A stretch of 64,000 nucleotides of DNA from an uncultured Gammaproteobacteria bacterium (GCA_964582715.1 CAZOSM010000004.1:57906-121905); one strand, 5' to 3'. Shown: positions 3,778 through 52,551, numbered from the stretch's first letter. Numbers and translations: made by a program. Notes: generated by a model from the letters alone, not told the origin.

Positions 3778-5070
3778 ATGCGAATTGGAATCATTGGAGC
3801 TGGTTTTACAGGTCTATCAGCGGCACTAGAACTACAGAAAGATGGTCATGAAGTGCACTTATTTGAAAAAGAAAAGGTCCCAGGAGGGCTCGCCGTAGGA
3901 TTTAGTGAAGAACAATGGGATTGGTCACTCGAGAAACATTACCACCATATCTTTACGACAGATTCTGCCATACGTCATTTAGCAAAAGAAGTAAAACATC
4001 CTTTTGAATTTAGTAGACCCAATACGTCCTCGCTTATTGACGCTGATATCATTCAGCTCGACTCACCAATTAAATTACTTCAGTTCCCCAAACTTTCTCT
4101 TATTGAGCGGCTACGAATGGCAGCAGTTCTTGGCTATTTACGATATCTGGCAGATTGGAAGCAACTCGAAAATTTCAAAGCTCACGACTGGCTTACCAAA
4201 GCAATGGGGAAGAAAGGCTATTCAATGCTCTGGGAACCTCTTCTGAAAGCAAAGTTTGGATCATATTACAAAGATATTTCACTTGCATGGTTTTGGGCTC
4301 GTATTAAGGCAAGATCTACTCAGTTGGGTTACCCAAAGCAGGGTTTCCAGGGATTTGCCGAGCGTCTTGTTGATATTATTCTTGATAATGCAGGTGTTAT
4401 TCATTACCAAACACAGGTTACAAAGCTCGATCAAGTAGATAAAAAAACAGTACTAACCTACCAGACAAAGGGTGTAAAACAACAGGAAATCTTTGACGTT
4501 GTGCTTGTAACTATTCCAAATCTTCAGTTTGCTGGTATAGCGCCAAGTCTCCCAGAAAACTATAAAAAGAAATTACGGGATTTTAAAGGTATTGGTGCGG
4601 TAAATATGGTGCTAGAACTTACCAAGCCGTTTTTGCCAAACAAGGTGTATTGGCTCAGTATCTGTGATACTCAGAATCCTTTTTTGGCGGTTGTTGAGCA
4701 CACCAATTTTATTGATAAAAAATACTACGATAATAAGCATATTGTGTATGTGGGGAACTATTTACCTCATGGTCATACGTATTTCTCTATGAAAAAAGAG
4801 GAGCTGCTTAAAGAATACGATCCTTACCTACAGAAATTACATGCAGGTTATGAAAAACACATTGTGAATAGCTATGTCTTTAAAGAACCATTCGCTCAAC
4901 CGGTTGTGACACCAGGCTTTTCAAAACAAATTCTCGATTTTGAAACTCCTTTATCCCATGTTTTTTTGGCTAATATGCAACAAGTGTACCCTTGGGATCG
5001 CGGAACAAACTTTGCAGTTGCAAAAGGAAAGGAAGTCGCGAGTGTGATTCGTGGTAAAATAAAGGCATGA
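3778..5070 (+). CDS. NAD(P)/FAD-dependent oxidoreductase (amine-oxidase / phytoene-desaturase-like fold)
   Basis: IGIIGAGFTGLSAA...LFEKE..PGGLA dinucleotide motif; TGaTATCAT box 5 nt before ATG 3778 (alternative ATG 3763); stop overlaps next start (ATGA at 5067..5070). Confidence 0.75.
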   Translation: MRIGIIGAGFTGLSAALELQKDGHEVHLFEKEKVPGGLAVGFSEEQWDWSLEKHYHHIFTTDSAIRHLAKEVKHPFEFSRPNTSSLIDADIIQLDSPIKLLQFPKLSLIERLRMAAVLGYLRYLADWKQLENFKAHDWLTKAMGKKGYSMLWEPLLKAKFGSYYKDISLAWFWARIKARSTQLGYPKQGFQGFAERLVDIILDNAGVIHYQTQVTKLDQVDKKTVLTYQTKGVKQQEIFDVVLVTIPNLQFAGIAPSLPENYKKKLRDFKGIGAVNMVLELTKPFLPNKVYWLSICDTQNPFLAVVEHTNFIDKKYYDNKHIVYVGNYLPHGHTYFSMKKEELLKEYDPYLQKLHAGYEKHIVNSYVFKEPFAQPVVTPGFSKQILDFETPLSHVFLANMQQVYPWDRGTNFAVAKGKEVASVIRGKIKA

Positions 5071-6638
5071 AATCTTCCTCACAGACCAGTTCAACAGGAG
5101 AATTGCTTTTATCAATTAGTCTTATTGTGCTGGCCTTTGGAGGTATCTTCGATGCATTTTATTTAACACTTAAACATTATTCAAAAGAGATTCCACCTTG
5201 TGCAACAGGTATTTTTGCAGATTGTGGAACTGTCTTAACAAGCCAGTATGCAACAATCTTCAACATTCCTCTATCTCTTTTGGGGATGGTTCATTATGCA
5301 TTACTTACAACTCTTATCTTGATATCGATTATGTCTGCTAAGCAGTTGTTTATTCGACTTGCTTTTCTTGCTTCTGCCATTGGGTTTGTATTCTCTTTAT
5401 ATCTGGTATTCCTTCAGGTAGTTGTACTCAAGGCTTTGTGCCAGTATTGTATGGTTTCAGCGCTTATTAGCTTTATGTTGTATGTTCTTATTCGCATCAG
5501 ATTCTCTGCAGAGTATCGTAATATGATGCCTAAAAAGGTAGAAATGTTGTACCAGATTTTTGGTAAGCCAGCTTTCTTTTTGTTTAACCCTGAATGGGTA
5601 CACGATAACGCAATGCGTTTTGGAGAATTATTTGGAAAAGTGCCTTTTATCAGATCACTATTCCGTTTCCTTTTCTCATATGAACATCCATCACTCAAGC
5701 AGAAAATAGGTGATATTACCTTTCAGAACCCTGTTGGTTTAGCCGCGGGGTACGATTACGAAGCTGCTTTTACTCAGGTATTGCCATCAATCGGTTTTGG
5801 TTTTGAGACGATCGGAACTATGACAAACAGCCCTAGCGAGGGGAATGAAAAACCACGTTTAGGCCGTCTGATTAAATCTAAATCATTGTTGGTAAATAAA
5901 GGATTTAGAAACCCAGGTGCTCAAAGAGTCGTTAAAAAATTACAAGGACACTCCTTTGAATTCCCTTTAGGAATTAGTGTTGGAGTAACCAATGACCCAA
6001 AAATTGCTACACTCAAAGAAGCTATTAATGATATTATCAGTGCTTTCCAAACCTTTGAAAAAGGAAGACTAAAAAATGCCTATTATGAACTCAACATAAG
6101 TTGTCCGAATTTAAAAACAGCAGTTTCTTTCTATGATCCCAAAGGATTACACCAGCTATTAACTGAGGTGGGAAAGCTAAAACTCAAGAAACCTCTATTC
6201 ATTAAAATGCCAATAGAGAAGTCCAATGAAGACGTAAAAAAGATGCTAGATATTATTGTGAAACATAAGGTTGTAAAAGGAGTTATATTTGGTAATCTGC
6301 AAAAAAATAGGAAGGATAAAACACTCCTTCCAGAAGAGGTGTCAAAAATGGGCAAAGGAAACTTTAGTGGTAAACCTACTTTTAAAAGGTCAAACGAGCT
6401 TATCAGATTGGCTTATAAAGGATATGGAAAGAAGCTTGTTATTATTGGCTGTGGTGGTATCTTTAGTGCCGATGATGCTTATATAAAAATAAAGTTAGGA
6501 GCTTCTCTCGTTCAGCTTATTACGGGTATGATCTTTGTTGGCCCTCAACTCATTACTCAGATTAATAGAGGATTAGTGGAGCGGTTAAAACGTGATGGTT
6601 ATAAAAAACTATCCGATGCAGTTGGAGTTGATGCGTAG
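5067..6638 (+). CDS. VKOR-domain / dihydroorotate-dehydrogenase-like fusion protein
   Basis: N-terminal 4 TM helices with C45-x7-C53 and C125QYC128 (VKOR redox pairs). C-terminal DHODH fold (FNPEWVHDNAMRFG, FQNPVGLAAGYD, GNEKPRLGRL, ELNISCPN, FSGKPT, GCGGI, ASLVQLITGMIFVGPQLI). Confidence 0.8.
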   Translation: MKSSSQTSSTGELLLSISLIVLAFGGIFDAFYLTLKHYSKEIPPCATGIFADCGTVLTSQYATIFNIPLSLLGMVHYALLTTLILISIMSAKQLFIRLAFLASAIGFVFSLYLVFLQVVVLKALCQYCMVSALISFMLYVLIRIRFSAEYRNMMPKKVEMLYQIFGKPAFFLFNPEWVHDNAMRFGELFGKVPFIRSLFRFLFSYEHPSLKQKIGDITFQNPVGLAAGYDYEAAFTQVLPSIGFGFETIGTMTNSPSEGNEKPRLGRLIKSKSLLVNKGFRNPGAQRVVKKLQGHSFEFPLGISVGVTNDPKIATLKEAINDIISAFQTFEKGRLKNAYYELNISCPNLKTAVSFYDPKGLHQLLTEVGKLKLKKPLFIKMPIEKSNEDVKKMLDIIVKHKVVKGVIFGNLQKNRKDKTLLPEEVSKMGKGNFSGKPTFKRSNELIRLAYKGYGKKLVIIGCGGIFSADDAYIKIKLGASLVQLITGMIFVGPQLITQINRGLVERLKRDGYKKLSDAVGVDA

Positions 6639-42857: not shown

Positions 42858-43039
42858 GAGCAAAGAATACAATATTAGGCGTTAAAAATCATCCATAGAA
42901 AGTATCTTCAACACTTTTAAAAGTGGCAATATATATATTGATTATCTATAAAGCATATTATTACTCAACAATTATTTATTGAAAATCGATAAATGAAATG
43001 TTACAATAGATCATCAACTTATTAATTGAATTTCATTAT

Positions 43040-43516
43040 ATGAAACAAAAATCAGCATTATTTTTGAAGTTTGTTCTTATATCAATTGCACTTGGAGCAG
43101 CAGCTCTTATGATCTGGTTACCTCAAACAGAAGGGAGAGCTACAAATTTAAATCTCATTCAAATTTATAGTGATCCATTTGTTCTGTATTGTTATATCGC
43201 GACAATTCCCTTCTTTGCAGCACTGTATCATGCATTTAGACTGCTAGGGTATATAGAGAAAAATAAGGTGTTTTCACCCGTTGCTGTACAAATGCTAAGC
43301 AATATAAAAAATTGTGCGCTTGCTATTATCGGATTTTTGGTTGGAGCAATACTATATATACGATTTGTGCTTCAAGGGGATGATCCGACAGGACCAATAA
43401 TGTTGGGTATGGTTGCTATTTTTGCGACAACTGTCATTGCAACTGGAGTGGCTGTTGCAGAAAAAATGTTACAAACAGCAGTTGATATAAAATCTGAAAA
43501 CGATTTAACAGTTTAA
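43040..43516 (+). CDS. DUF2975-family membrane protein
   Basis: Four TM helices; precedes a YozG-type HTH gene, the usual DUF2975 partner. Confidence 0.6.
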   Translation: MKQKSALFLKFVLISIALGAAALMIWLPQTEGRATNLNLIQIYSDPFVLYCYIATIPFFAALYHAFRLLGYIEKNKVFSPVAVQMLSNIKNCALAIIGFLVGAILYIRFVLQGDDPTGPIMLGMVAIFATTVIATGVAVAEKMLQTAVDIKSENDLTV

Positions 43517-43526
43517 AAAGAGATTT

Positions 43527-43742
43527 ATGGGAATAATAGTCAACATTGACGTGATGCTTGCAAAACGAAAAATGAGCGTTACTGAGCTTACAGAAAAAGT
43601 GGGGATTACTATGGCTAATTTGTCTATTTTGAAAAATGGTAAGGCAAAAGCTATACGGTTTTCAACTCTTGAGGCAATCTGTAAAGCGCTAAATTGCCAA
43701 CCCGGTGATATTTTGGAATATAAAGAAGATGAAGAAAAGTGA
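43527..43742 (+). CDS. XRE/Cro-type HTH regulator (YozG-like)
   Basis: NIDVMLAKRKMSVTELTEKVGITMANLSILKNGKAKAIRFSTLEAICKALNCQPGDIL is a complete small HTH_26-type protein. Confidence 0.8.
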   Translation: MGIIVNIDVMLAKRKMSVTELTEKVGITMANLSILKNGKAKAIRFSTLEAICKALNCQPGDILEYKEDEEK

Positions 43743-43773
43743 GAATTTTTTTATAAAGAAAGGTGGTGATTTT

Positions 43774-44055
43774 ATGAAAACAAAAGATATTAGCATGCAA
43801 CAAAGTATATTAAGAATCACAGTGGGAACAGTATTATTGTTACTGATCCCTCTTATTGCGCAATGGCCATGGAGTACCAGTGATTTTGTTGTGATGGCTG
43901 TTCTTATTTTTATAGCTGGCTTAGGCATTGATCTGTTCTTGAGAAACAAATCTTCTCAAAAACAAAAAGCTCTTGTTGGCCTCGCAATTGTTGTGGGAAT
44001 ACTCTGGTTATATGTGGAACTTGCTGTGGGCTTGTTTACTAACTGGGGAAGTTAA
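43774..44055 (+). CDS. Hypothetical 93-aa three-TM protein
   Basis: AGGTGGTGA SD 4 nt upstream of ATG 43774; hydrophobic helices. Confidence 0.5.
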   Translation: MKTKDISMQQSILRITVGTVLLLLIPLIAQWPWSTSDFVVMAVLIFIAGLGIDLFLRNKSSQKQKALVGLAIVVGILWLYVELAVGLFTNWGS

Positions 44056-44069
44056 CACATGATACGAAT

Positions 44070-44107
44070 ATGCTGTCGGAATGAGCGTACGTAGTTCTCG
44101 ACAGCAT
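44070..44107. other. Perfect 9-bp stem hairpin (ATGCTGTCG - 20 nt - CGACAGCAT)
   Basis: Inverted repeat 44070..44078 / 44099..44107 in an otherwise AT-rich spacer; no U-tract. Confidence 0.4.
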
Positions 44108-44142
44108 GACCGCTTAGCTTATAATCTGAATAGAATTCAATG

Positions 44143-44171
44143 TTGTAATTGTGTAAATTTGTCCTTACAAT
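44143..44171 (+). promoter_or_regulatory. Promoter TTGTAA-N17-TACAAT, -10 box ends 6 nt before ATG 44178
   Basis: TTGTAA 44143..44148, TACAAT 44166..44171. Confidence 0.45.
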
Positions 44172-44177
44172 GACAGT

Positions 44178-46913
44178 ATGTTTTCATTTTTACGTCCATT
44201 ATCTGTTTATTTCATAGCTATTTTTGTACTATTCAGCTTCTTATTTATAGCACCTATTGTTAAAGCAGAAACACTTCTTGAAGGGTCAAATAGTAATTTA
44301 TCTGGAGATGATAATTATGTGGGATCGATAGGTATTGGCTTTAATTTTGATTTTTATGGTAATTCTTACTCGCAGTCATCCATCAATATCAATGGTATGT
44401 TAAATTTTGGATCAGGATCGTCTGCATATAGTAACACTGGTATTCCAAATGCAAGCTCTCCAAACAATTTTATAGCTCCATTCTGGGATGACATAATTAC
44501 GCAGGATTTTAGTAAAGAGACTATTTACTATACTACAACTGGTTCTGCTCCTAATCGTAAATTTATAGTGCAATGGACGAATATGTACTTTTATAACAAT
44601 CCAACTCTCCAGATGGGTACATTTCAAGTAATTTTATATGAAGGGTCTAATAACATCCAAGTGCGCTATCTTGATTTGTATGGTAATGCACAGGCCTTTG
44701 GTAACAGTGCTTCAATTGGAGTAGAAAATAGCAATGGTAGTTCTGGAGTACAATATTCATTAAATACTGCGTCCTTAACAAGTGGACAATGTTTGTTATT
44801 CTCACCGAGTGATGGTACTTATTCTATTGATGATGATGCAACCTGTGACGAATATAGATTATTTGATCCGAATGCTCCTTCTGCACCGACATTGACTGCT
44901 CCGGATGATGGTGTTAATGAAGAAGCTTTAATTCCAACTTTTATGTGGGATGAAGCCAATAATACTGATAGCTACACAATTTTAATTGCTACAGACGCTA
45001 ATTTTGCAAATATTACCTATAATCAAACTGGAATAACTTCAACTAGTTATACACCTCCCAACCCCCTATTAAGTGATACGTTATTTTATTGGCGAGTACA
45101 ATCGGTGAATGAAACAACAACGGCGTTATCTGAAGTCAGGACATTTACAACAAGACATGCACCTCGACTTTCCACATTTGGCCCATCGGCTATGGTAAAC
45201 GGGAGTTATACAACCAATGCTAGTCCGGGTGTGACCTTTAACATTACAGATAGTGTTGATGGACATTCAGTTCAATACAGGATTCAAATAGATAATAATA
45301 GCAATTTTGGAAGCCCCGAGGTCGATTATACTTCCGGACTTGCTAGCACTGGTTCTACATCTTTTACAGTTGGACAAGATGCTGGTTCTGGAAGTTATAC
45401 AGTGGGCAGTGCAGGTCAACAATTGTCTAATGCCAATTATTATTGGAGAGTTATGGCAATAGATTCAATTGGAGAAGAGTCTCCATACACAACAGCAAAT
45501 AGTGGAAGCATCGCTTTTCGTGTGCTAGCTGGATCTCCCGAAATATCTGATATGAATGCTATAGCTAATAATACTACAGCCACAATCACGTGGACAACAG
45601 CCCAGGAATCATCTTCTAAAGTTGAATATGGACGAGTTACTACCTATGGGTTTACAACAACTGAAACCAATACTTCACCTCGAGTGACCAGTCATTCAGT
45701 GAATCTTACCGATTTAACACCATGTAGTCGCTACTTTTATCGTGTGAGATCTAAAAATGCTGCAAGTAGTGAAAAGGTGAGCACACAAGGAACTTTCTCT
45801 ACAACAGGCTGTGTGACTACCATTGTTGAAGGTTCGGAGGAAACTATTGTTCCGGCCAGTGGTGGATCTGTTACATATACAAATAATAACGCAACAATTG
45901 GTATTACAGCGCCAAGTAATTTTGTAAACGAGTCTAGTACGACTATTCAAATTAACAGGTTAGAAACGAATTCTGTACCAGTAGCACCACCATCTGTGAG
46001 CTTAGTAAAGGATAATCTATATAGTTTTACAGTTGTAACAGATGGCAGTGAAACTATAACGGAGTTTGATGAGCCAGTTATTGTTGTTTTTACATATGGA
46101 ACAGATATAGAAGCACAATATAAAGAATCAACTTTAGACTTATATAAATATCTTGAAGATAATGATGAGTGGGAGTCTAAATCTTGTATTGTGGATACAA
46201 ATGCAAATACAGTGACATGTACTCTTTCATCTTTTTCGACATATGGAATAATGGGTGAAGAAAATACACAACAATCCTCTGGAAATCGTCCTTCAAGCTC
46301 TCAACCTGGAATTTCGACAAAAACATGTAGTAATGATCGTCCAGAAGGGAGTATTGATTTATTCCAAATCGATATGATAGATACAAAAGCTACCTTGCAT
46401 TTTACACCTATTAATAACAATATCAGTGAATACTTTATAAGTTATTCTTTAAATAAAGATGAATATATGTATGGAGTAGTCTTGCCACATGGTCCTTCAT
46501 CTGGTGCAATAAATTACACCATTAATGAGCTGACACCCAATACAACATATTACTTTCAAGTCCGCGCTGGAAATGGATGTATGCCAGGTGAGTGGAGCAA
46601 TCAGATGGAAGTTAAAACGACGGTAAAAAATGGAGAACAGAAAGTGTATTATAAAAATTTTGTGGCTAAAATATTATCAGTGTTACCCAACACACAGAGA
46701 GTATTAGGAAAAACTACCACAAAACCTGTAAAGCAACAAAAAAATACTAATACCAAAACTTGTTCATACACAATTGCTCCGAATGATACATTATGGAATA
46801 TTGCAGAAGCAAAGTTGAACAATGGAGCACGCTATAAAGAAATCATGGATCTAAATAATATGGATTCAACAATACTTACTCCTGGAGAAACAATTAAAAT
46901 AGCTTGCTCATAA
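44178..46913 (+). CDS. 911-aa secreted surface protein: NIDO-like N-domain, FN3-like repeats, C-terminal FN3-linker-LysM cassette
   Basis: Signal peptide. FNFDFYG...NGMLNF...IAPFWDD...TFQVILYE (NIDO-like). At least three FN3-like units (YYWRV, YFYRVRS). C-terminal LysM (CSYTIAPNDTLWNIAEAKL...TPGETIKIAC). Confidence 0.8.
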   Translation: MFSFLRPLSVYFIAIFVLFSFLFIAPIVKAETLLEGSNSNLSGDDNYVGSIGIGFNFDFYGNSYSQSSININGMLNFGSGSSAYSNTGIPNASSPNNFIAPFWDDIITQDFSKETIYYTTTGSAPNRKFIVQWTNMYFYNNPTLQMGTFQVILYEGSNNIQVRYLDLYGNAQAFGNSASIGVENSNGSSGVQYSLNTASLTSGQCLLFSPSDGTYSIDDDATCDEYRLFDPNAPSAPTLTAPDDGVNEEALIPTFMWDEANNTDSYTILIATDANFANITYNQTGITSTSYTPPNPLLSDTLFYWRVQSVNETTTALSEVRTFTTRHAPRLSTFGPSAMVNGSYTTNASPGVTFNITDSVDGHSVQYRIQIDNNSNFGSPEVDYTSGLASTGSTSFTVGQDAGSGSYTVGSAGQQLSNANYYWRVMAIDSIGEESPYTTANSGSIAFRVLAGSPEISDMNAIANNTTATITWTTAQESSSKVEYGRVTTYGFTTTETNTSPRVTSHSVNLTDLTPCSRYFYRVRSKNAASSEKVSTQGTFSTTGCVTTIVEGSEETIVPASGGSVTYTNNNATIGITAPSNFVNESSTTIQINRLETNSVPVAPPSVSLVKDNLYSFTVVTDGSETITEFDEPVIVVFTYGTDIEAQYKESTLDLYKYLEDNDEWESKSCIVDTNANTVTCTLSSFSTYGIMGEENTQQSSGNRPSSSQPGISTKTCSNDRPEGSIDLFQIDMIDTKATLHFTPINNNISEYFISYSLNKDEYMYGVVLPHGPSSGAINYTINELTPNTTYYFQVRAGNGCMPGEWSNQMEVKTTVKNGEQKVYYKNFVAKILSVLPNTQRVLGKTTTKPVKQQKNTNTKTCSYTIAPNDTLWNIAEAKLNNGARYKEIMDLNNMDSTILTPGETIKIACS

Positions 46914-47013
46914 TTTATTTATCTGTATCAAATCTTCTTTAAAGATGGAAAATTAACTATGATATATAAAAAGCATATTAAACTGATATAGTCTCTAAAT
47001 TATGCAATTTTTG

Positions 47014-47640
47014 TTATAGTCTATGTGTAGCAGATTCTGCTTGATCTCGATGATATATATATGTTGGCCATATAACTTTTTTCACTTTAAATGTATCAAT
47101 TGCTCTTTCAATAAAATCAGAATCTGAAGCATAAGCCATTTTTTTAAATCCATTTAAGGTATGAAAAACACGTTGTTTAGCAAAAATGGTACCTCCAACA
47201 TAAACAGTTGGGTCGTATAAGCTGATCTTTTTTGTGATATCTCTTTTATCTGGTACAAATTCATCACCAATGATTAATAAACCTCCATGCAGCATATCAG
47301 TATCAGGATTTCTTTCTAATTCTTCTACACGCAGTTTCAAATGTTCTACAGAATATTCATCATCAGAACCCAGTAATGTTATGTATGTCCCTTTTGCAGC
47401 AGATATCCCATCATTGGTGGCCTTAGCTTCACCCGCATGACTATTCAAGATAAGTCTAAAACGTGCGTCTTGTTTTACAAATTTTGAAGCAACACGTGCC
47501 GTATTATCTGTACTTCCATCATCTACAATTATACATTCCCAGTCATGAAAGGACTGTTTTTCAACAGAAATAAGAGCACGTTCCAAAAATTGTGGGCGAT
47601 TATAGACAGGAATAACAATAGAAACAGTTGGATTAGACAT
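47014..47640 (-). CDS. Family-2 glycosyltransferase
   Basis: VSIVIPVYNRPQ, IIVDDGSTD, LGSDDE (DxD) motifs. Confidence 0.85.
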   Translation of the reverse strand: MSNPTVSIVIPVYNRPQFLERALISVEKQSFHDWECIIVDDGSTDNTARVASKFVKQDARFRLILNSHAGEAKATNDGISAAKGTYITLLGSDDEYSVEHLKLRVEELERNPDTDMLHGGLLIIGDEFVPDKRDITKKISLYDPTVYVGGTIFAKQRVFHTLNGFKKMAYASDSDFIERAIDTFKVKKVIWPTYIYHRDQAESATHRL

Positions 47641-47641
47641 A

Positions 47642-48328
47642 TTAATATTGAGGATATCCAGGAAACCAATCCTGTTTAATATTGTTTTCAGAAATACCCA
47701 TTTCTTTTAGAGTATTCCCCAAACTCTCCACCATTGGTTCAGGTCCTGAAACATAAAAAAGAGGTTTCTGAATATCTGGAATCAGTTCTTTGATCTTGTT
47801 CTCATCAATATGTTCTGGTGAAAATATATAGTGAATTTTAAAGTTTGGGTTTTCTTTTACAAATGCTTCAAGTTCTTCTTTATACACAATGTTTTGATCA
47901 CGGTTAGCGTATAAAAGGGTGATATTAAGTAGTTTTCCTTCATGATTGAGCTGTTTAAGAATTGATCTAAATGGAGTAATGCCGATTCCTCCCGCTATAA
48001 ACACATATTCCTTGGAATAGTCTTCAATAACAAAATCTCCTTCCACCACAGAAATTTCAATAGATTTTCCAATTTTGAGATTCTTCAGTTTATTTTTAAA
48101 AGAACTACTTCTTTCGTTATTAAATCTGGTTGTCAGCATGATATTACCTTCTATAGGGGCAGCTGCATTAGTAAACCATCTATCAGAACCTCGATCATCT
48201 GTTGGTTCATGATGCAAGACATAATGGAGAAACTGTCCTGGTTTCCAAGTAATCTTTTCCGATGGTTCAAAGATAAATGATTCTACATCGGTTGTTTCAG
48301 ATTTTTTTTCAATGAGTTTTAATTTCAT
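47642..48328 (-). CDS. FNR-like FAD/NAD(P)-binding oxidoreductase
   Basis: RWFT (RxYS-type FAD motif), GGIGITPF NAD(P) motif, beta-barrel plus Rossmann length. Confidence 0.75.
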   Translation of the reverse strand: MKLKLIEKKSETTDVESFIFEPSEKITWKPGQFLHYVLHHEPTDDRGSDRWFTNAAAPIEGNIMLTTRFNNERSSSFKNKLKNLKIGKSIEISVVEGDFVIEDYSKEYVFIAGGIGITPFRSILKQLNHEGKLLNITLLYANRDQNIVYKEELEAFVKENPNFKIHYIFSPEHIDENKIKELIPDIQKPLFYVSGPEPMVESLGNTLKEMGISENNIKQDWFPGYPQY

Positions 48329-48330
48329 AT

Positions 48331-48606
48331 TTATTTTGAAAATAATAATTTTTTTAAGTCAATTCCATGTTCCTCCAAAAACTGCCTGTTTAAACTATAA
48401 AACCAGAGGACACCTTCCTTTCTGTTAGTGATAACGCCTGCATCAACTAATTTATTAAAGTGATGAGAGAGAGTAGGTTGCGTGAGAGAAAATTCTTTCA
48501 TTAACTCCTGACAAGCCATTTCTTCTGTATGTATAAGTCTTTTAAGCATAGCAAGGCGGGTTTCGTCTGCGAGTGCTTTAAAAAGTTTGACTGTTTTTTT
48601 ATCCAT
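48331..48606 (-). CDS. ArsR/SmtB-family transcriptional regulator
   Basis: LFKALADETRLAMLKRL...LTQPTLSHHFNKLVDAGV winged-HTH; ATG 48606. Confidence 0.85.
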   Translation of the reverse strand: MDKKTVKLFKALADETRLAMLKRLIHTEEMACQELMKEFSLTQPTLSHHFNKLVDAGVITNRKEGVLWFYSLNRQFLEEHGIDLKKLLFSK

Positions 48607-48630
48607 ATATTTAATTATTGAAATGTTTCT

Positions 48631-48659
48631 ATAATATACCCTTGTCAACAATTTGTCAA
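48631..48659 (-). promoter_or_regulatory. arsR-like gene promoter with tandem TTGACAA repeats
   Basis: Minus strand TTGACA (48659..48654)-N17-TATTAT (48636..48631). TTGTCAA occurs twice 11 bp apart on the plus strand (48642..48648, 48653..48659) in the divergent spacer. Confidence 0.4.
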
Positions 48660-48679
48660 TAAAGCGATATACTATTTAT

Positions 48680-49024
48680 ATGCTAAAACTCAAACGGATA
48701 TATGATTCATACCATAAAGAAGATGGATATAGGATATTAGTTGATAGACTTTGGCCGCGTGGTGTATCTAAGGAAGATGCTCATATTGATCTCTGGATGA
48801 AAGATATAGCGCCAAGTGACGAGCTGCGTAAATGGTTCCATCATGAAGAAGCTAAGTGGGATGAGTTTAAGAAAAGATATAGTAAAGAATTACAGAATAA
48901 TTCGCAACATATTAAAGAACTTAAAGATCTTGTAAAGCGACATAGAGTTATTACACTGCTGTATGGTGCAAAAGATACGGAACATAATCAGGCAGTCGTA
49001 CTTAAAGAATTTCTAGAACATTAA
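48680..49024 (+). CDS. DUF488-family protein
   Basis: RILVDRLWPRGVSKE...DLWMKDIAPS..LRKWF signature; TATACT 6 nt before ATG 48680. Confidence 0.8.
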   Translation: MLKLKRIYDSYHKEDGYRILVDRLWPRGVSKEDAHIDLWMKDIAPSDELRKWFHHEEAKWDEFKKRYSKELQNNSQHIKELKDLVKRHRVITLLYGAKDTEHNQAVVLKEFLEH

Positions 49025-49062
49025 GAAATAATGAGAGTTTATTGTTGATATAATCAATGTAT

Positions 49063-49656
49063 ATGAGAAAAATAATTGTACTTACTTTTTTATCTTTAGA
49101 CGGTGTTATGCAAGCTCCAGGAGGTCCGGAAGAAGATCCTTCAGGAGATTTTACATATGGTGGCTGGACTGTTCCATACTTTGATGAAGAATTAGGTAAA
49201 GCAATGGGTTCACAAATGGGACCTGCTGACCTCCTTTTGGGAAGAAAGACGTTTGAGATATTTGCTGGCTACTGGCCCGAGCATGAGAACGACTGGCCTG
49301 GTATTAATAAGGTAGCAAAGTATGTTGTTTCTACCACTCTAAAAGAACATAGCTGGAGTAACTCCGTTTTTATAAATAGCAATGTAGTTGAAGAAATTAA
49401 AAAACTTAAATCTCAAGAAGGTTTAGACTTACAAGTTCATGGAAGTGGCAATCTGATTCAAACATTATTAGAGCACGATCTCGTAGATGAGTTTTGGCTA
49501 AAAATATTCCCTGTTACGTTAGGAAGAGGGAAGAGATTATTTGATGAAGGAACTCTACCTGCAGCTTTTACATTAATTGATTCAAAATCAACTCCTTCTG
49601 GTGTTATTCTCGCAAAGTATAAGCGTGCAGGAGAAGTAAAGACAGGTTCATTTTAA
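49063..49656 (+). CDS. Dihydrofolate-reductase-family protein (RibD C-terminal-like)
   Basis: SLDGVMQAPGGPEED, LLLGRKTFE, LQVHGSGNLIQTLL, FPVTLGRGKRLF; TGATATAAT 8 nt before ATG 49063 (ATG 49057 also in frame). Confidence 0.8.
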   Translation: MRKIIVLTFLSLDGVMQAPGGPEEDPSGDFTYGGWTVPYFDEELGKAMGSQMGPADLLLGRKTFEIFAGYWPEHENDWPGINKVAKYVVSTTLKEHSWSNSVFINSNVVEEIKKLKSQEGLDLQVHGSGNLIQTLLEHDLVDEFWLKIFPVTLGRGKRLFDEGTLPAAFTLIDSKSTPSGVILAKYKRAGEVKTGSF

Positions 49657-49663
49657 AGAGGTG

Positions 49664-51343
49664 CTAACACTTCATCTTAAGTCTCTGTCCAGGATGAATA
49701 AGGGTAGAAGGGAGGTTATTTCCCTGCATTAATTCTGTATATTTTGATCCTTCTCCCAATGTAGTCTTGGATATATTCCATAAGTTATCTCCTGATTTTA
49801 CAGTATACTCGCATGAGTTAGTATCTGGGGTTCCTGTAGTATCTGGTGCAGTAGGTGGTATGTGCGTTATCTGAGTTGGGAATACGGCAAGAATACGTGA
49901 GACAAAGTTTTTATAGTATGAAATATAACTTGCGGTTGAATTGGTCGTTTTAATAGTCATTTTGTTACTCCAGTCACCTGACATGCACCCGTTACCTCCA
50001 CGGATCGTAAATGTATAGGTGGTATTGGGGGTAAGCATATTAATTGTATAGGAAATTGCCCCAGTAGGCTTTCCTGTTTCAAACTCGACACCATACTGGT
50101 GTGTGTTTTCATCCAATCCATAACTTACGAAATACTTGTGAGCACCTGTAGCTGGTGCGAAGTATAGTACTGCCTGAGTATTACTTACATCAATCTGAAA
50201 TAGGTTGGGCGCTTCTGAAGGCTTAGAATCGGAACAGGATGGAGGATGTGAAGTTACTGAGGAAGTGTTGGTATTCTTAGTGGGTTTTGGTGTTGAGGTT
50301 GGTGCATCTGTAGGAGCAGGAGTATTGGTTGGCGTTGGTGTAGGAGTAGGTGTGTTGGTTGGTGTTGGTGTATTTGTTGGGGTAGGCTCAACATCTAAAA
50401 ATACCTGTACACGATCGTTTCCTGTATCTACAACCCAGATTGTACCTGCATTGTCCATTGCTATACTGAAAGGATTATTTAATTGACCGTCTCCAATTCC
50501 AGAGCTTTGGTATGTTTCAATAAGTGAGCCGGTTAACGTATATTTATTTATTTTATGATCATCAGGACACGCAGCATATACGTTTCCATCGTTATCTACT
50601 TTTACATCCCGAATACTTGAGCAAGCAGACCATCTTCTAATAAAATTGCCATCAGTATCAAATACTTGAATCCTGTTATTTAAGGTTTCGGCAGCAAAAA
50701 TATATCCTGTTCCTTCATGGTAAAATACACTGTTTACACCTCCTATATTTTCACCTCCAAGACCTACCCAGTTAGTAATAAAGTTACCACTACTATCAAA
50801 TTTAGAAATGCGATGATTAGTTGATTCTGCAACATAAATATTGCCTTCGCTGTCAACTGTCGCAGAATATGGTGTTTGTAACTGTCCATCACCTGTACCG
50901 CCTGTTCCAAACTTCATAATAAAATTACCATTGTTATCAAATTTTTGAATACGATTATTCGCAGAATCTGCCACATAAATATTATCATCTGAATCTATGC
51001 CAAGCTTTCTTGGCCCGGAAAACTGACCGTCTCCAGAACCAGTTGTGCCCCATTTCAAAATAAAATCACCATTGGAACTGAATTTCTGTACATTATTACC
51101 TGCTGTATCTATTACAAATAGGTTTCCATTGGAATCGCGTACAATACCCTGTGGACTTTGAAACTGGCCGTCTCCAGAACCGCTGCTTCCAAACTGTGAC
51201 TGATATATAAGAACAGCATAAATGGGAGATGCAAAAGAGCTAACAAAAACAAACAATATCAAAAAAAATACTACAATCGAGTAAATAAGCTTAACTGGTT
51301 TCACATATCTACTATAGCAAATAATAGAGAATTTGTTTTCCAT
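49664..51343 (-). CDS. Secreted NHL-repeat beta-propeller protein with Pro/Thr linker and C-terminal FN3-linker-LysM cassette
   Basis: Signal/TM; six NHL-type blades (GDGQF..P.GI..D..GN..V.D..N.R.Q.F); PTPTNTPTPT linker. Tail is paralogous to the ORF 44178 tail and ends in LysM (CEYTVKSGDNLWNISK...HPGQRLKMKC). Confidence 0.8.
   Translation of the reverse strand: MENKFSIICYSRYVKPVKLIYSIVVFFLILFVFVSSFASPIYAVLIYQSQFGSSGSGDGQFQSPQGIVRDSNGNLFVIDTAGNNVQKFSSNGDFILKWGTTGSGDGQFSGPRKLGIDSDDNIYVADSANNRIQKFDNNGNFIMKFGTGGTGDGQLQTPYSATVDSEGNIYVAESTNHRISKFDSSGNFITNWVGLGGENIGGVNSVFYHEGTGYIFAAETLNNRIQVFDTDGNFIRRWSACSSIRDVKVDNDGNVYAACPDDHKINKYTLTGSLIETYQSSGIGDGQLNNPFSIAMDNAGTIWVVDTGNDRVQVFLDVEPTPTNTPTPTNTPTPTPTPTNTPAPTDAPTSTPKPTKNTNTSSVTSHPPSCSDSKPSEAPNLFQIDVSNTQAVLYFAPATGAHKYFVSYGLDENTHQYGVEFETGKPTGAISYTINMLTPNTTYTFTIRGGNGCMSGDWSNKMTIKTTNSTASYISYYKNFVSRILAVFPTQITHIPPTAPDTTGTPDTNSCEYTVKSGDNLWNISKTTLGEGSKYTELMQGNNLPSTLIHPGQRLKMKC
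50279..50396 (-). repeat. Degenerate tandem ACN-CCN repeat encoding a Pro/Thr-rich linker
   Basis: Encodes PTPTNTPTPTNTPTPTPTPTNTPAPTDAPTSTPKPT inside ORF 49664..51343. Confidence 0.85.
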
Positions 51344-51421
51344 ATAAGAAAATACTTGAAGTGAATTAGGGAACAATAGACTATTGTAGATAGAAAATGC
51401 TTGATCTGGTACACTAAACGT

Positions 51422-51607
51422 ATGGAAATATTTTTATGGGGATTATGGAATGGACTAACTGCTTGGATTGTACTTATTGCTCATGTATTTGGAGCCTTAC
51501 AACAGTATCCAGTTTATAATACTGCACTTGATGGAGGATGGTACCAGTTTGGATTCTTGCTGGGTGCGGGATCTCCACTACTTGGATTATTTGGAAAAAA
51601 ACATTAA
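51422..51607 (+). CDS. Hypothetical 61-aa two-TM protein
   Basis: TGgTACACT box 6 nt before ATG 51422; two hydrophobic helices. Confidence 0.4.
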   Translation: MEIFLWGLWNGLTAWIVLIAHVFGALQQYPVYNTALDGGWYQFGFLLGAGSPLLGLFGKKH

Positions 51608-52473
51608 TTTTCTTTCAATAATTCTGTTCGTAATTGTTCGGAAAAATCAGGTTCTGCGTAGTATTTTTTCACTAAATCGGAAATATAATAGTTATTCTTA
51701 ACTTCTTCAAAAGAAATATCATTTTGGATAAAACCCAACTCGTATAACATCTCATCAGAATACCCAGGAAAAATCCAGGCTGCATGATAGGGAATTGTGC
51801 CTGGTTTACTTGCATTCGCATTTTTAGCGAGCTCATTGGTACAGTTACTGGTTAGACTATTATAAAAACGGGGAGTGGTTTCCAGACTTTGTGTGGTTTT
51901 GGCAAGCTGTAGAAACAATCGCCGTCCTTGTTCTTTAGAAATAGTGAGAGGATACATGTATACACTATTATCTTCAATAAGAATTCTTCGTTGTGTTAAG
52001 TCTTCTTCTGTGCCCCAAACGTACATGATTTCAAAACTATTCAGCATGCCTTTTAATAACCCAAACTGTTCTTCTTTTTCGCGGCGAGCTTCTACAGAAA
52101 CAACTATTGGTTTTTCATCTTCAAAATCAAAAACAAAATAGGTGTGCGCAATCCCGCCAAATTTGATGATCGGAAATCCTTCGAATGGCTCAACTAAAAA
52201 CCACACACGCTCCAGTTTAGAAATATTAACTTCACGATCTATATACCCGGCAGAAATAAATTTCCCAGGCGCATATCGATAATCACGCAGATTTGTAATA
52301 CCTACAATATCATCATTAATTTCAATTTGTGGTAAGGTTTCAAAACCAACTTCCCAGTCTCTATCATTATTTGGCTTCATAACAAAGAAGACGTAAATCA
52401 GATAAGCAACTATAATGGTTAAAATAGTTACTAAAAAATATGATTTACCGTGTCTCAGTTTTTGTATATTCAT
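51604..52473 (-). CDS. DUF4105 (Lnb N-terminal-like) domain protein
   Basis: N-terminal TM; NLRDYRY, GHTYFVFDF, YNSLTSNCTNE motifs of DUF4105; TATAAT 6 nt before ATG. Confidence 0.75.
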   Translation of the reverse strand: MNIQKLRHGKSYFLVTILTIIVAYLIYVFFVMKPNNDRDWEVGFETLPQIEINDDIVGITNLRDYRYAPGKFISAGYIDREVNISKLERVWFLVEPFEGFPIIKFGGIAHTYFVFDFEDEKPIVVSVEARREKEEQFGLLKGMLNSFEIMYVWGTEEDLTQRRILIEDNSVYMYPLTISKEQGRRLFLQLAKTTQSLETTPRFYNSLTSNCTNELAKNANASKPGTIPYHAAWIFPGYSDEMLYELGFIQNDISFEEVKNNYYISDLVKKYYAEPDFSEQLRTELLKEN

Positions 52474-52551
52474 AGCATTATTATAATTGCTTTTCCATTT
52501 CTTCCATAACTTTTACGTTTCTTTTTTTTAAAGGAGTTATACTATTGAGAT

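What the first reader, a model, noticed from the sequence alone, without database searches (positions are those of the whole stretch)
44178..51343. Two inverted giant surface-protein genes share an FN3-linker-LysM tail cassette and bracket a five-gene accessory block
ORF 44178..46913 (plus strand) has a NIDO-like head plus FN3 repeats. ORF 49664..51343 (minus strand) has a six-blade NHL propeller plus a Pro/Thr linker. The heads are unrelated, but the last ~200 residues are clearly paralogous (about 46290..46913 versus 49664..50245).
Shared blocks, in order:
- LFQID
- YF(I/V)SY
- GAI(N/S)YTIN(E/M)LTPNTTY
- GNGCM(P/S)G(E/D)WSN
- YYKNFV..IL.V.P
- a Cys-flanked LysM: C(S/E)YT...(D/G)(T/N)LWNI...PG...(I/L)K..C
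The cassette looks like a portable module of fibronectin domain, spacer and peptidoglycan-binding anchor, onto which different binding heads are grafted.
The two genes converge on a 2.7-kb block:
- GT2 glycosyltransferase
- FNR-like reductase
- ArsR regulator
- DUF488 protein
- DHFR-family protein
For a putative episymbiont, a LysM tail could bind either its own wall or the host wall.
Basis: partly seen in the sequence, partly recalled or inferred. Interest (0 to 1): 0.62.

Follow-up and report, generated by a model that had tools for sequence, protein, structure and literature searches.

The report
Swappable wall-anchor tail on surface proteins
Two secreted proteins of an ultra-small (Patescibacteria) bacterium carry unrelated binding heads on the same tail of a disulfide-stapled fibronectin domain plus a LysM wall-binding domain; this tail is a widespread, undescribed mix-and-match scaffold in these bacteria, while the five genes lying between the two genes are unrelated neighbours.

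Summary
ORF 44178..46913 (+, 911 aa) and ORF 49664..51343 (-, 559 aa) have unrelated heads (NIDO-like plus FN3/Ig repeats; six-blade NHL propeller). Their last ~195 residues are 45% identical (E 8e-51): FN3, a conserved YYKNF..ILS.FP segment, a linker and a LysM, with four invariant Cys.

The tail is family-wide. 194 representative clusters match at E<=1e-30, about 60 of the best 150 carry the whole cassette, and 101 sampled proteins have 55 head classes.

My refinement:
- The constant part is the Cys-stapled FN3.
- The slot behind it holds interchangeable anchors: LysM, LysM+TM helix, LPXTG sortase signal, amphipathic helix, a KKxCFLWWCW end, or nothing.
- This argues that the LysM holds the protein on the cell's own wall.
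- Orthologs of the 911-aa protein (64-65% identical over residues 1-826) stop just before the LysM piece.

The "bracketed five-gene block" has no support:
- The block does not recur in 94 related loci.
- Paired cassette genes are rare (2 of 34 loci of 10 kb or more).
- The closest strain keeps the block and the NHL gene but lacks the 911-aa gene.
- The genes are not "giant".

Verdict: a new variant of a known kind (a LysM-anchored modular surface protein). No paper in the held library was found to describe it, but other notes of this scan have seen it.

The parts
44178..46913 (+). P0001, a 911-aa secreted modular surface protein. In order: signal peptide, NIDO-like head, FN3/Ig repeats, stalk domain, Cys-FN3 core, YYKNF segment, linker, LysM.
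   Evidence: ORF; translation; Pfam. A TACAAT box lies 6 nt before the ATG.
44178..44267 (+). N-terminal signal peptide of P0001: MFSFLRPLSVYFIAIFVLFSFLFIAPIVKA, with the putative cleavage site before ETLL.
   Evidence: Read from the sequence: a basic n-region, a 21-residue hydrophobic core and a VKA site. No signal-peptide predictor was available, so this is an inference.
44268..44867 (+). NIDO-like head domain of P0001 (aa 31-230).
   Evidence: PF06119 NIDO, E 6.3e-9, 36.5 bits against a cutoff of 25 when the head is scanned alone. It is 63-73% identical in the orthologs. The head is widespread outside CPR on other anchors.
44868..45809 (+). FN3/Ig-like repeats of P0001 (aa 231-544).
   Evidence: Ig_Rha78A_N at aa 345-440 and Pur_ac_phosph_N at aa 464-537. 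60-69% identical in the orthologs.
45810..46268 (+). Stalk domain of P0001 (aa 545-697), ending TCTLSSFSTYGIMG. It has no Pfam family.
   Evidence: No Pfam hit. P0001 aa ~452-697, which includes this domain, is 45-53% identical to the pre-cassette region of P0176, P0098, P0094 and P0129. The domain is 54-56% identical in the orthologs.
46323..46646 (+). Cys-stapled FN3 core of P0001 (aa 716-823), with invariant Cys717 and Cys801 (GNGC).
   Evidence: fn3 PF00041 over aa 735-812. AF2 model pLDDT 82-93. Foldseek matches NCAM, BOC and CDO FN3 domains at TM about 0.75. The Cys are invariant in 12 and in 39 aligned tails.
46647..46688 (+). Conserved segment YYKNFVAKILSVLP of P0001 (aa 824-837).
   Evidence: Coordinates. 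Conserved across the family. The first residues form an extra edge strand on the FN3 and the rest is modelled with low confidence. The orthologs stop here.
46761..46907 (+). Cys-flanked LysM of P0001 (aa 862-910, Cys862...Cys910).
   Evidence: PF01476, 33.6 bits against a cutoff of 20.9. The model shows a beta-alpha-alpha-beta fold with pLDDT 77-85.
47014..47640 (-). GT2 glycosyltransferase. An intervening gene, not part of the system.
   Evidence: PF00535, E 1.9e-31. It does not recur beside cassette genes.
47642..48328 (-). FNR-like oxidoreductase. An intervening gene, not part of the system.
   Evidence: PF00175, E 1.2e-13. 0 of 94 loci carry it.
48331..48651 (-). ArsR-type HTH regulator. 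An intervening gene; together with the FNR-like and GT2 genes it forms a tightly packed minus-strand trio.
   Evidence: PF12840 and PF01022. Gene spacing.
48653..49024 (+). DUF488 protein. An intervening gene.
   Evidence: PF22752 and PF04343. Copies 64% and 58% identical lie beside the P0003 and P0006 genes only.
49057..49656 (+). RibD_C (DHFR-like) protein. An intervening gene.
   Evidence: PF01872, E 3.3e-23. 0 of 94 loci carry it.
49664..51343 (-). P0002, a 559-aa secreted modular surface protein. In order: signal peptide, six-blade NHL propeller, Pro/Thr linker, Cys-FN3 core, YYKNF segment, linker, LysM.
   Evidence: ORF; translation; Pfam.
50354..51196 (-). Six-blade NHL beta-propeller head of P0002 (aa ~50-330).
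   Evidence: NHL PF01436, 102 bits, 4 stretches. Six ~47-aa repeats can be read in the sequence. Direct DNA repeats have a 141-nt period.
50240..50353 (-). Pro/Thr-rich linker of P0002 (aa 331-368).
   Evidence: Sequence TPTNTPTPTNTPTPTPTPTNTPAPT....
49919..50239 (-). Cys-stapled FN3 core of P0002 (aa 369-475), with Cys370 and Cys453.
   Evidence: fn3, 25.5 bits against a cutoff of 25. AF2 with 39 sequences gives pLDDT 86-96. 61% identical to the core of P0003. The X4 strain shows 13 synonymous to 6 non-synonymous changes here.
49877..49918 (-). Conserved segment YYKNFVSRILAVFP of P0002 (aa 476-489).
   Evidence: Coordinates. 'ISYY' is modelled as an extra strand and the rest has pLDDT 40-60.
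49667..49813 (-). Cys-flanked LysM of P0002 (aa 511-559, Cys511...Cys559, the last residue).
   Evidence: PF01476, 39.7 bits against a cutoff of 20.9. Model pLDDT is above 90.

Best explanation
Both genes encode Sec-exported, cell-surface display proteins of a Patescibacteria (Microgenomates-type) bacterium.

Each protein is built as: distal ligand-binding head, then linker or stalk, then a disulfide-stapled FN3 'core', then the YYKNF..ILS.FP segment, then a flexible linker, then a C-terminal LysM closed by its own disulfide.

Proposed mechanism:
- The LysM binds the glycan strands of the cell's OWN peptidoglycan non-covalently.
- The FN3 core acts as the wall-proximal spacer.
- The head is held outwards, where it binds a ligand, plausibly a host or substrate glycan or protein.

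The FN3 core is a lineage-specific hub. Evolution has repeatedly joined different heads in front of it and different envelope anchors behind it.

The two window genes are old paralogs from different core clades. The five genes between them are unrelated neighbours.

Shown: the domain architecture, family-wide modularity, alternative anchors, folds, and the lack of recurrence of the block.

Inferred: export, the two disulfides, peptidoglycan binding, own-wall orientation, and the head functions.
For: 1. Tail homology: 45% identity over 195 aa, E 8e-51. Pfam finds fn3 and LysM in both tails.

2. Family:
- The profile of the two tails gives 194 clusters at E<=1e-30.
- About 60 of the best 150 carry the full cassette as one stretch, mostly at the very C-terminus.
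- Heads are diverse, with 55 classes among 101 proteins.
- The 100*-supported clade P0092/P0118/P0110 has NHL, GLUG and BNR heads on near-identical cores.

3. Anchor slot. After the core, homologs carry one of:
- LysM
- LysM + CarboxypepD_reg + TM helix + K/R tail
- an LPNTG/LPNAG sortase signal (TIGR01167, 16.9 bits against a cutoff of 15.9)
- a strongly amphipathic end (muH 0.6, p<=0.003)
- KKxCFLWWCW
- nothing

TM helices and LPXTG signals are unambiguous cell-proximal anchors. In the LysM+TM class the LysM lies between the core and the cell's own membrane.

4. Orthologs:
- P0187, P0188 and P0191 match P0001 at 64-65% identity over aa 1-826 and stop at ..YFK. No LysM remnant is found downstream.
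- P0190 keeps the head and stalk but has another core and an amphipathic end.

5. Folds:
- The AF2 models have mean pLDDT 75.7 and 84.9.
- They show a confident FN3 with an extra edge strand, a confident LysM, and a low-confidence tether between them.
- Foldseek matches canonical FN3 domains.

6. Disulfides:
- Four Cys are invariant. The first pair is kept in LysM-less members.
- A VKOR disulfide-forming enzyme is encoded in the same window.

7. Constraint: in the X4 strain the tail shows 17 synonymous to 12 non-synonymous changes.
Against: - There is no experimental evidence for export, wall binding or orientation.
- The N-terminal hydrophobic segments are long (about 20 residues) and could be uncleaved signal-anchors. 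That would put the LysM at the distal tip.
- The LysM-ended class has no second anchor, so the own-wall orientation rests on analogy with the TM and LPXTG classes.
- The role of the conserved YYKNF..FP segment is unresolved. It is only weakly amphipathic (muH 0.41-0.50, shuffle p 0.06-0.12) and is modelled with low confidence.
- Cys-Cys distances could not be measured, because model coordinates are not exposed.
- The taxonomic range rests on few named MAGs: Levybacteria, Shapirobacteria and 'Patescibacteria group'. Two core-bearing MAGs are labelled Gammaproteobacteria.
Confidence: 0.72

Rival explanations
1. Host-wall grapple. The proteins stay tethered to the episymbiont by an uncleaved N-terminal signal-anchor, or they are released. 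The C-terminal LysM is then the distal, functional tip that binds the HOST's peptidoglycan (or chitin), and the 'heads' act near the symbiont surface.
For: - LysM binds GlcNAc-containing glycans whatever their source (established knowledge of PF01476).
- Shaiber et al. 2020 (bioRxiv 10.1101/2020.04.29.069278) proposed LysM proteins as a means for TM7 to attach to Gram-positive hosts.
- The N-terminal hydrophobic cores are about 20 residues long, which is long enough for a membrane anchor.
- The LysM-ended class has no other C-terminal anchor.
Against: - The same position behind the FN3 core is filled in homologs by TM helices with a cytoplasmic K/R tail and by LPXTG sortase signals. These place the C-terminus at the producer's own envelope.
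- In 14 representative proteins the LysM sits between the core and the producer's own TM helix.
- The N-terminal domains are the diversified part (55 classes), as expected for the distal, ligand-facing end.
- Orthologs of P0001 do without LysM altogether.
Confidence: 0.15
2. Functional island. The two convergent cassette genes and the five genes between them form one co-selected surface-modification unit. For example, the GT2 might glycosylate the wall or the Pro/Thr linkers, under ArsR control.
For: - The genes are physically adjacent, and a GT2 lies between two surface-protein genes.
- A DUF488 gene 58-64% identical to the window's lies next to the cassette genes with the nearest tails, P0003 and P0006.
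- L120 also has two convergent core genes.
Against: - Block genes are essentially absent beside cassette genes elsewhere: GT2 1, ArsR 2, FNR 0 and RibD_C 0 in 94 loci covering 758 kb.
- Only 2 of 34 loci of 10 kb or more have a second core gene, which is what chance adjacency gives for a small multi-copy family.
- The nearest strain (X4, about 90% nt identity) keeps the block and P0002 but has no coverage of P0001.
- P0001 orthologs lie next to unrelated genes such as a Mur ligase and HxlR.
- There is no inverted DNA repeat that could drive inversion.
Confidence: 0.05
3. The FN3-YYKNF core is a recognition handle for a dedicated partner, such as an S-layer or wall-associated receptor or a sorting enzyme. 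The partner does the real anchoring or assembly, and the LysM and other endings are only auxiliary.
For: - The core and the YYKNF..ILS.FP segment are more conserved than the LysM.
- Many members end right after the core with no recognisable anchor: 19 of 101 representative proteins and 15 of 80 metagenome loci, including P0001's own orthologs on long contigs.
- The YYKNF segment is modelled as unstructured on its own, as is typical of a docking peptide.
Against: - No candidate partner gene is consistently adjacent.
- LPXTG members lack the YYKNF segment altogether.
- No known sorting-signal model matches.
Confidence: 0.08

Closest known systems
LysM-anchored cell-wall proteins of monoderm bacteria (for example Lactococcus lactis AcmA, Listeria p60/IspC, Staphylococcus Sle1). 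Named from my own knowledge and from Buist et al. 2008, as cited.
   Same: A secreted protein with a functional N-terminal part and C-terminal LysM that holds it non-covalently on peptidoglycan. The Pfam LysM match is above the gathering score.
   Different: - Here there is a single LysM, closed by a Cys pair. It always follows a specific Cys-stapled FN3 and a conserved YYKNF..FP segment.
- The heads are binding domains (NHL, NIDO), not wall hydrolases.
- The LysM is interchangeable with other anchors within one family.
Sortase-anchored LPXTG surface adhesins (MSCRAMM-type) of Gram-positive bacteria.
   Same: Same logic: signal peptide, variable binding head, Ig/FN3-like stalk, C-terminal wall anchor. 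Some family members do carry an LPNTG or LPNAG signal after the same FN3 core.
   Different: The two window proteins have no LPXTG, no C-terminal TM helix and no charged tail. Their anchoring would be non-covalent.
'Choice-of-anchor' domains of NCBIfam: domains defined by sitting next to different C-terminal sorting signals. Recalled from my own knowledge; one homolog of the NIDO head is annotated 'choice-of-anchor D'.
   Same: The Cys-FN3 core behaves in just this way. One conserved domain is followed by LysM, TM helix, LPXTG, amphipathic helix or the Cys-Trp tail.
   Different: No choice-of-anchor model, nor any other NCBIfam model, matches the core. So it is not a member of the described families.
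Disulfide-stabilised LysM domains of plant receptors and fungal effectors (CERK1, Ecp6). Named from my own knowledge.
   Same: Cys residues flank the LysM, which suggests an extracellular, disulfide-locked domain.
   Different: These are bacterial proteins with a single LysM and one Cys immediately before beta-1 and one after beta-2. No sequence relationship beyond the LysM fold was tested.
LysM proteins of oral Saccharibacteria (TM7), proposed as host-attachment factors (Shaiber et al. 2020, 10.1101/2020.04.29.069278).
   Same: Patescibacteria LysM proteins discussed as surface or attachment factors.
   Different: Those are MepM-type peptidases and COG1388 proteins, some in T4SS operons. The FN3-YYKNF-LysM cassette is not described there.

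Membership tests
LysM domain (PF01476) | Profile match above Pfam's gathering score. | tested here: met
   P0001 scores 33.6 bits and P0002 39.7 bits against a cutoff of 20.9.
LysM domain (PF01476) | Beta-alpha-alpha-beta fold. | tested here: met
   The AF2 models show E146-150, H157-165, H168-177, E190-194 and E145-149, H156-164, H167-176, E189-193 with pLDDT above 90.
LysM domain (PF01476) | Binds peptidoglycan or chitin glycan. | not testable with these tools
   Needs a pull-down with the recombinant tail.
Fibronectin type III (PF00041) | Profile match above the gathering score. | tested here: met
   P0001 scores 55.2 bits, with its best stretch at 735-812. P0002 scores 25.5 bits against a cutoff of 25, which is marginal.
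Fibronectin type III (PF00041) | Seven-strand beta-sandwich fold. | tested here: met
   Foldseek matches NCAM1, BOC and CDO FN3 domains with probability 1.00 and TM about 0.75. The models add an eighth edge strand.
NHL-repeat six-blade propeller (PF01436) | Repeated NHL motifs forming six blades. | tested here: met
   102 bits against a cutoff of 20. Six ~47-aa repeats can be read in aa 50-330. Direct DNA repeats have a 141-nt period. The fold itself was not modelled.
NIDO domain (PF06119) | Profile match above the gathering score. | tested here: met
   36.5 bits against a cutoff of 25 when the head alone is scanned. It was not reported for the whole protein at E<=0.1. The match is partial, covering profile positions 4-110 of 186.
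Sortase substrates (LPXTG anchor, TIGR01167) | C-terminal LPXTG, then a hydrophobic stretch, then a basic tail. | tested here: not met
   Absent from P0001 and P0002. Present in homologs L133, L144 and L157.
NCBIfam choice-of-anchor domain families and other C-terminal sorting domains | A match to any described model. | tested here: not met
   No such hit for the proteins, the isolated core, or the homologs' Cys-Trp and amphipathic ends.
Co-functional gene island (two cassette genes plus the five-gene block) | The arrangement recurs in related genomes. | tested here: not met
   The closest strain lacks P0001 but keeps the block.

The most novel reading that the evidence does not exclude
The Cys-stapled FN3 core, with its YYKNF..ILS.FP segment, is the hub of a Patescibacteria-specific, combinatorial surface-display system. 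A single conserved 'adaptor' domain is recognised by an as yet unknown envelope partner. Evolution plugs dozens of host-contact heads in front of it and at least five kinds of anchor behind it, including the undescribed KKxCFLWWCW end. Strain-level gain and loss of whole genes (P0001 is absent from the nearest strain) and of anchor pieces (LysM is absent from P0001's orthologs) would then tune host range and attachment strength in these episymbionts.
Probability: 0.2. Interest if true: 0.7.

Novelty: new variant of a known kind. Interest (0 to 1): 0.45.

Why it matters
Patescibacteria are a large share of bacterial diversity, and most are thought to live attached to other cells. How they hold proteins on their surface, and which proteins touch the host, is largely unknown.

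This locus gives an entry point:
- a recognisable C-terminal signature (C..P..LFQID ... GNGCMPG.WSN ... YYKNF..ILS.FP ... C.YTV..GD.LW.IA ... C) that flags candidate surface-displayed proteins in Microgenomates-type genomes;
- a list of alternative anchors that shows which end faces the cell;
- a set of heads (NHL, NIDO, BNR, GLUG, ice-binding-like, lectin-like) to test as host-contact domains.

It is still a variation on the familiar theme of modular, LysM- or sortase-anchored surface proteins, and similar arrays have been noted elsewhere in this scan. So the surprise for a specialist is moderate.

Tried and rejected
Copy number in this genome therefore remains unknown.
- Recombination or inversion between the two tails: no DNA-level inverted repeat was found. 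The cores fall in different clades and are only 45% identical. Rejected.
- Genome-contig scan with the full tail: swamped by the generic LysM pattern, and only 6-7 relevant loci came back. Repeated on metagenomes with core-specific patterns.
- Viral origin or phage receptor-binding protein: no relative on viral contigs. Rejected.
- Single-linkage clustering of whole heads over-merged, because many proteins share stalk domains. Redone on the distal 280 aa.
- DUF488 linkage: found beside only the nearest relatives' genes, in varying orientation. Treated as local micro-synteny or chance.
- An X1 contig 'joint' skipping 43522..51818 at 80% likeness with a 45-nt side: judged to be a cross-match from another organism's HTH gene, and not used.
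- Partial holders of P0001 (X16-X19): only low-coverage fragments of the same strain at 100% identity. No information on module exchange.
- Amphipathic-helix reading of YYKNF..FP: only weakly supported. Left open.
- Faster head evolution: not seen. P0001's head is 63-73% identical in its orthologs, against 63-65% for the core. In P0002 against X4, the tail shows 17 synonymous to 12 non-synonymous changes and the head 3 to 7, but the head list is partial.
- Literature: no paper combines LysM, FN3 and CPR. Only generic LysM mentions were found for Saccharibacteria.

Full report
**1. Observation**

The region holds seven genes.
- P0001 runs 44178..46913 on the plus strand and is 911 aa.
- P0002 runs 49664..51343 on the minus strand and is 559 aa from the ATG. 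A TTG at 51376 would add 11 codons.
- The two genes converge. Between them lie five genes:
  - GT2 (47014..47640, minus)
  - an FNR-like NAD-binding oxidoreductase (47642..48328, minus)
  - an ArsR-type regulator (48331..48651, minus)
  - DUF488 (48653..49024, plus)
  - a RibD_C/DHFR-like protein (49057..49656, plus)

BLASTP of the two large proteins gives one significant alignment.
- P0001 716-910 aligns with P0002 369-559, with 87 of 195 residues identical (45%) and E 8e-51.
- Everything else is noise.
- Pfam calls fn3 and LysM in both tails. It calls NHL (102 bits) in P0002's head. It calls NIDO (36.5 bits against a cutoff of 25) in P0001's head when that is scanned alone.
- Six NHL-type repeats can be read in P0002.

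- The proteins are not 'giant'.
- The window has only these two copies.
- The tails share no DNA-level inverted repeat.

**2. The tail is a family-wide module**

A profile of the two tails was searched against 1.84 billion representative proteins.
- It gave 194 clusters at E<=1e-30.
- About 60 of the best 150 match the whole profile (positions 1-198) as one stretch.
- These proteins are 233-1835 aa long, and the match is mostly at the very C-terminus.

A word-based search found 38 more relatives.

Pfam over 65 full-length members shows many head types in front of the tail:

| Head family | Members |
|---|---|
| Laminin_G_3 | 12 |
| Sortilin/BNR | 6 |
| DUF2341 | 6 |
| GLUG | 4 |
| Beta_helix | 3 |
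| Ice_binding | 2 |
| NHL | 2 |
| Big_13, Big_5 and others | a few each |

Further points:
- Clustering the distal 280 residues of 101 representatives gives 55 head classes.
- In a tree of the 125-residue core, the two window proteins fall in different clades. P0002 is nearest to P0003 (61% identity). P0001 is nearest to P0056 (53%) and sits loosely with the LysM+TM group.
- Well-supported clades mix heads. The 100* clade P0092/P0118/P0110 has NHL, GLUG and BNR heads.
- Named genomes with the full cassette or the core are Candidatus Levybacteria, Shapirobacteria and 'Patescibacteria group' MAGs. Two MAGs labelled Gammaproteobacteria look mis-binned.
- No viral contig encodes the core.
- An earlier agent's placement of this genome in CPR/Microgenomates is consistent with this.

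**3. The cassette is composite, and the slot behind the FN3 holds interchangeable anchors**

Four Cys are invariant.
- Two sit in the FN3: one before strand A and one in the GNGC turn.
- Two flank the LysM.
- LysM-less members keep the first pair.

The table lists what follows the core in the 101 representatives and in 80 metagenome loci found with core-specific patterns.

| Ending | 101 representatives | 80 metagenome loci |
|---|---|---|
| (a) LysM as the last domain (both window genes) | 47 | 12 |
| (b) LysM + CarboxypepD_reg + TM helix + K/R tail | 14 | 2 |
| (c) P/T/Q linker + KKxCF(L/F)WWCW-COOH | 9, plus 1 with LysM | 15 |
| (d) Linker + strongly amphipathic end (SWWQRLTEFFGSLFK type) | 2 classed, plus a few among 'other' | 12 or more |
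| (e) LPNTG/LPNAG + hydrophobic stretch + basic tail (sortase signal) | not seen | 4 loci, 3 distinct proteins |
| (f) Another Cys-flanked domain | 4 | not counted |
| (g) Stop right after the YYK(NF..FP) segment | 19 | 15 |

Notes on the table:
- Type (d) ends have muH 0.6 and shuffle p<=0.003.
- The type (e) signal passes TIGR01167 at 16.9 bits against a cutoff of 15.9.
- In the metagenome set, 18 endings fell in a residual 'other' class (which holds some type (d) and the four type (e) loci), 3 ORFs ran off their contig, 2 had a TM helix without LysM, and 1 had LysM followed by another domain.

Each head class with several members pairs with two or more endings. No NCBIfam model covers the core, type (c) or type (d).

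**4. Orthologs of P0001 show anchor exchange on a constant head**

The NIDO-like head is widespread. Outside CPR it sits on T9SS C-terminal domains, PG_binding_1, CarboxypepD_reg and other endings.

The closest homologs are P0187, P0188 and P0191.
- They are collinear with P0001 at 64-65% identity over residues 1-826.
- They then stop at ..SYFK, ..TFYK or ..SFFRYTE.
- They lie on contigs of 100-160 kb.
- In L169 the stop abuts a convergent Mur-ligase gene.
- No LysM remnant exists in any frame.

So the last ~85 residues of P0001 (NFVAKILSVLP, linker and LysM) are a separately acquired or lost piece.

P0190 keeps the head, repeats and stalk (45-63% identity) but has a different core (26%) and an amphipathic end.

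Per-domain identity of P0001 to its three collinear orthologs:

| Domain | Identity |
|---|---|
| NIDO head | 63-73% |
| FN3/Ig repeats | 63-69% |
| Stalk domain | 54-56% |
| Cys-FN3 core | 63-65% |

There is no sign that heads evolve faster by point substitution. Diversity arises by exchanging modules at the linkers.

P0001 residues ~452-697 are also 45-53% identical to the pre-cassette region of LysM+TM proteins. So the part of P0001 shared with the family is about 460 residues, not 200.

**5. Structure**

- AF2 of P0001's tail with 12 sequences gave mean pLDDT 75.7. AF2 of P0002's tail with 39 sequences gave 84.9. The two models agree.
- The FN3 sandwich is confident (pLDDT up to 96).
- The residues just before and at 'YY' add an extra edge strand to the FN3.
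- The rest of YYKNF..FP and the linker are low-confidence.
- The LysM is a confident beta-alpha-alpha-beta domain.
- pTM is about 0.58, so the two domains are tethered and not fused rigidly.
- Foldseek finds canonical FN3 domains at TM about 0.75.
- As a helix, the YYKNF segment is only weakly amphipathic. Its role is open.
- A VKOR domain is encoded in the same window (ORF 5067..6638). That provides a plausible route to extracytoplasmic disulfides.

**6. The five-gene block and the pairing**

- Neighbourhoods of nine other cassette genes share nothing with the window. The exception is a DUF488 gene (58-64% identical) next to the two nearest relatives of P0002's tail.
- In 94 loci covering 758 kb, homologs of the block genes occur as follows: GT2 1, ArsR 2, DUF488 3 (two of them the same organism), FNR 0, RibD_C 0.
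- Only L083 and L120, of 34 loci of 10 kb or more, carry two core genes. A few copies scattered in a ~1-Mb genome would give about that by chance.

Public runs place the organism in a bioreactor metagenome.
- A relative at about 90% nt identity in a manure metagenome (X4) covers 43000-43735 and 47008-53000.
- X4 has zero depth over 44336-47007, and it is not among the holders of P0001.
- So the block and P0002 are retained while P0001 is strain-variable.

The 'bracket' is therefore a coincidence of position.

**7. Mechanism and rivals**

My best reading (0.72):
- Both are Sec-exported display proteins.
- The LysM holds the C-terminus on the producer's own peptidoglycan.
- The Cys-FN3 is the wall-proximal spacer or hub.
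- The heads face outwards.

The main argument is positional equivalence. The same slot carries TM helices and LPXTG signals in homologs, and in the LysM+TM class the LysM lies between the core and the cell's own membrane.

Rivals:
- The LysM is a distal grapple for the host wall (0.15). This idea exists in the literature for TM7.
- The core is a handle for an unknown partner (0.08).
- The seven genes form one functional island (0.05).

In X4, P0002's tail shows 17 synonymous to 12 non-synonymous changes (13 to 6 in the FN3 core). That is consistent with purifying selection.

**8. Novelty**

- FN3, LysM, LysM anchoring and modular surface proteins are all known.
- The specific Cys-stapled FN3/YYKNF hub with interchangeable anchors has no Pfam or NCBIfam model.
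- I found no paper describing it.
- Earlier, unchecked notes of this scan report similar arrays in other Patescibacteria genomes, including 'FN3 stalk with swappable anchors, LysM or KKxCFLWWCW'. My family-level analysis reached the same conclusion independently and adds LPXTG, TM and amphipathic endings and the ortholog evidence.
- I rate it a new variant of a known kind, of moderate interest.

**Limits**

- No signal-peptide predictor and no model coordinates were available.
- No RNA data were found.

Noticed in passing
Homologs P0103, P0104, P0138, P0141, P0142, P0159, P0175, P0179, P0180 and P0075; loci L097, L102, L117, L121, L129, L130, L141: An ultrashort C-terminal motif, KKxCF(L/F)WWCW-COOH, ends many proteins that carry the same Cys-FN3 core. 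No NCBIfam model matches it. Earlier scan notes describe the same tail as a possible new anchoring signal.
   Followed up: partly
Loci L104, L106, L115, L118, L123, L139, L153; L003:4978-6519; P0190: Another recurrent ending after the core is a linker followed by a strongly amphipathic C-terminal helix (SWWQRLTEFFGSLFK or FWGWLRNLFP type; muH about 0.6, shuffle p<=0.003). It may be an in-plane membrane anchor.
   Followed up: partly
L133:669-1940, L144:2-1096 (same protein as L143), L157:2-613: Ice-binding-like heads on the same Cys-FN3 core, followed directly by an LPNTG or LPNAG sortase signal. A sortase gene lies about 4 kb from the P0006 gene in L082.
   Followed up: partly
P0091, P0099, P0101, P0109 (C-terminal ~70 aa): A different Cys-flanked domain (..ALxNFGxFSVFQxF...LTExGCSSHT) replaces LysM behind the YYKNF..FP segment. 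It has no family assignment.
   Followed up: no
window 43736-47007: The closest public strain (manure metagenome X4, about 90% nt identity) covers both flanks but not this 3.3-kb stretch (ORF 43705..44055 plus P0001). Its contigs diverge after 43735. What replaces the stretch is unknown.
   Followed up: partly
window 45810-46268 (P0001 aa 545-697): A ~150-aa stalk domain ending ..TCTLSSFSTYGIMG has no Pfam hit. It is 54-56% identical in the orthologs, and it lies within P0001 aa ~452-697, which is 45-53% identical to the pre-cassette region of LysM+TM family members.
   Followed up: partly
window 48653-49024; L001:8409-8759; L082:8741-9085: DUF488 genes 58-64% identical to the window's lie within 1.5 kb of the cassette genes whose tails are closest to P0002's. 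Their orientation differs, and they are absent from the other loci.
   Followed up: partly
P0003, P0007, P0070 (heads): These heads are built of ~46-aa repeats with the motif F(V/A)QCTNADCS. They have no Pfam match and may form a Cys-rich propeller.
   Followed up: no
L003, L004 (MAGs labelled uncultured Gammaproteobacteria): These contigs carry a core gene (LTD head, Cys-FN3, amphipathic end) and Pro/Thr-linker proteins typical of CPR. The taxonomic label is probably a binning or labelling error.
   Followed up: no
window 48606-48700: As listed, the ArsR and DUF488 ORFs start 1 nt apart on opposite strands, both at TTG. Internal ATGs (MDKKTVKLF.. and MLKLKRIYD..) are the likelier starts and would leave a ~75-nt divergent promoter region.
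   Followed up: no
window 5067-6638: A VKOR domain fused to a DHODH domain (Pfam VKOR E 4.3e-26, DHO_dh E 2.4e-50), already reported by another agent. It is relevant here only as possible extracytoplasmic disulfide-forming machinery.
   Followed up: partly
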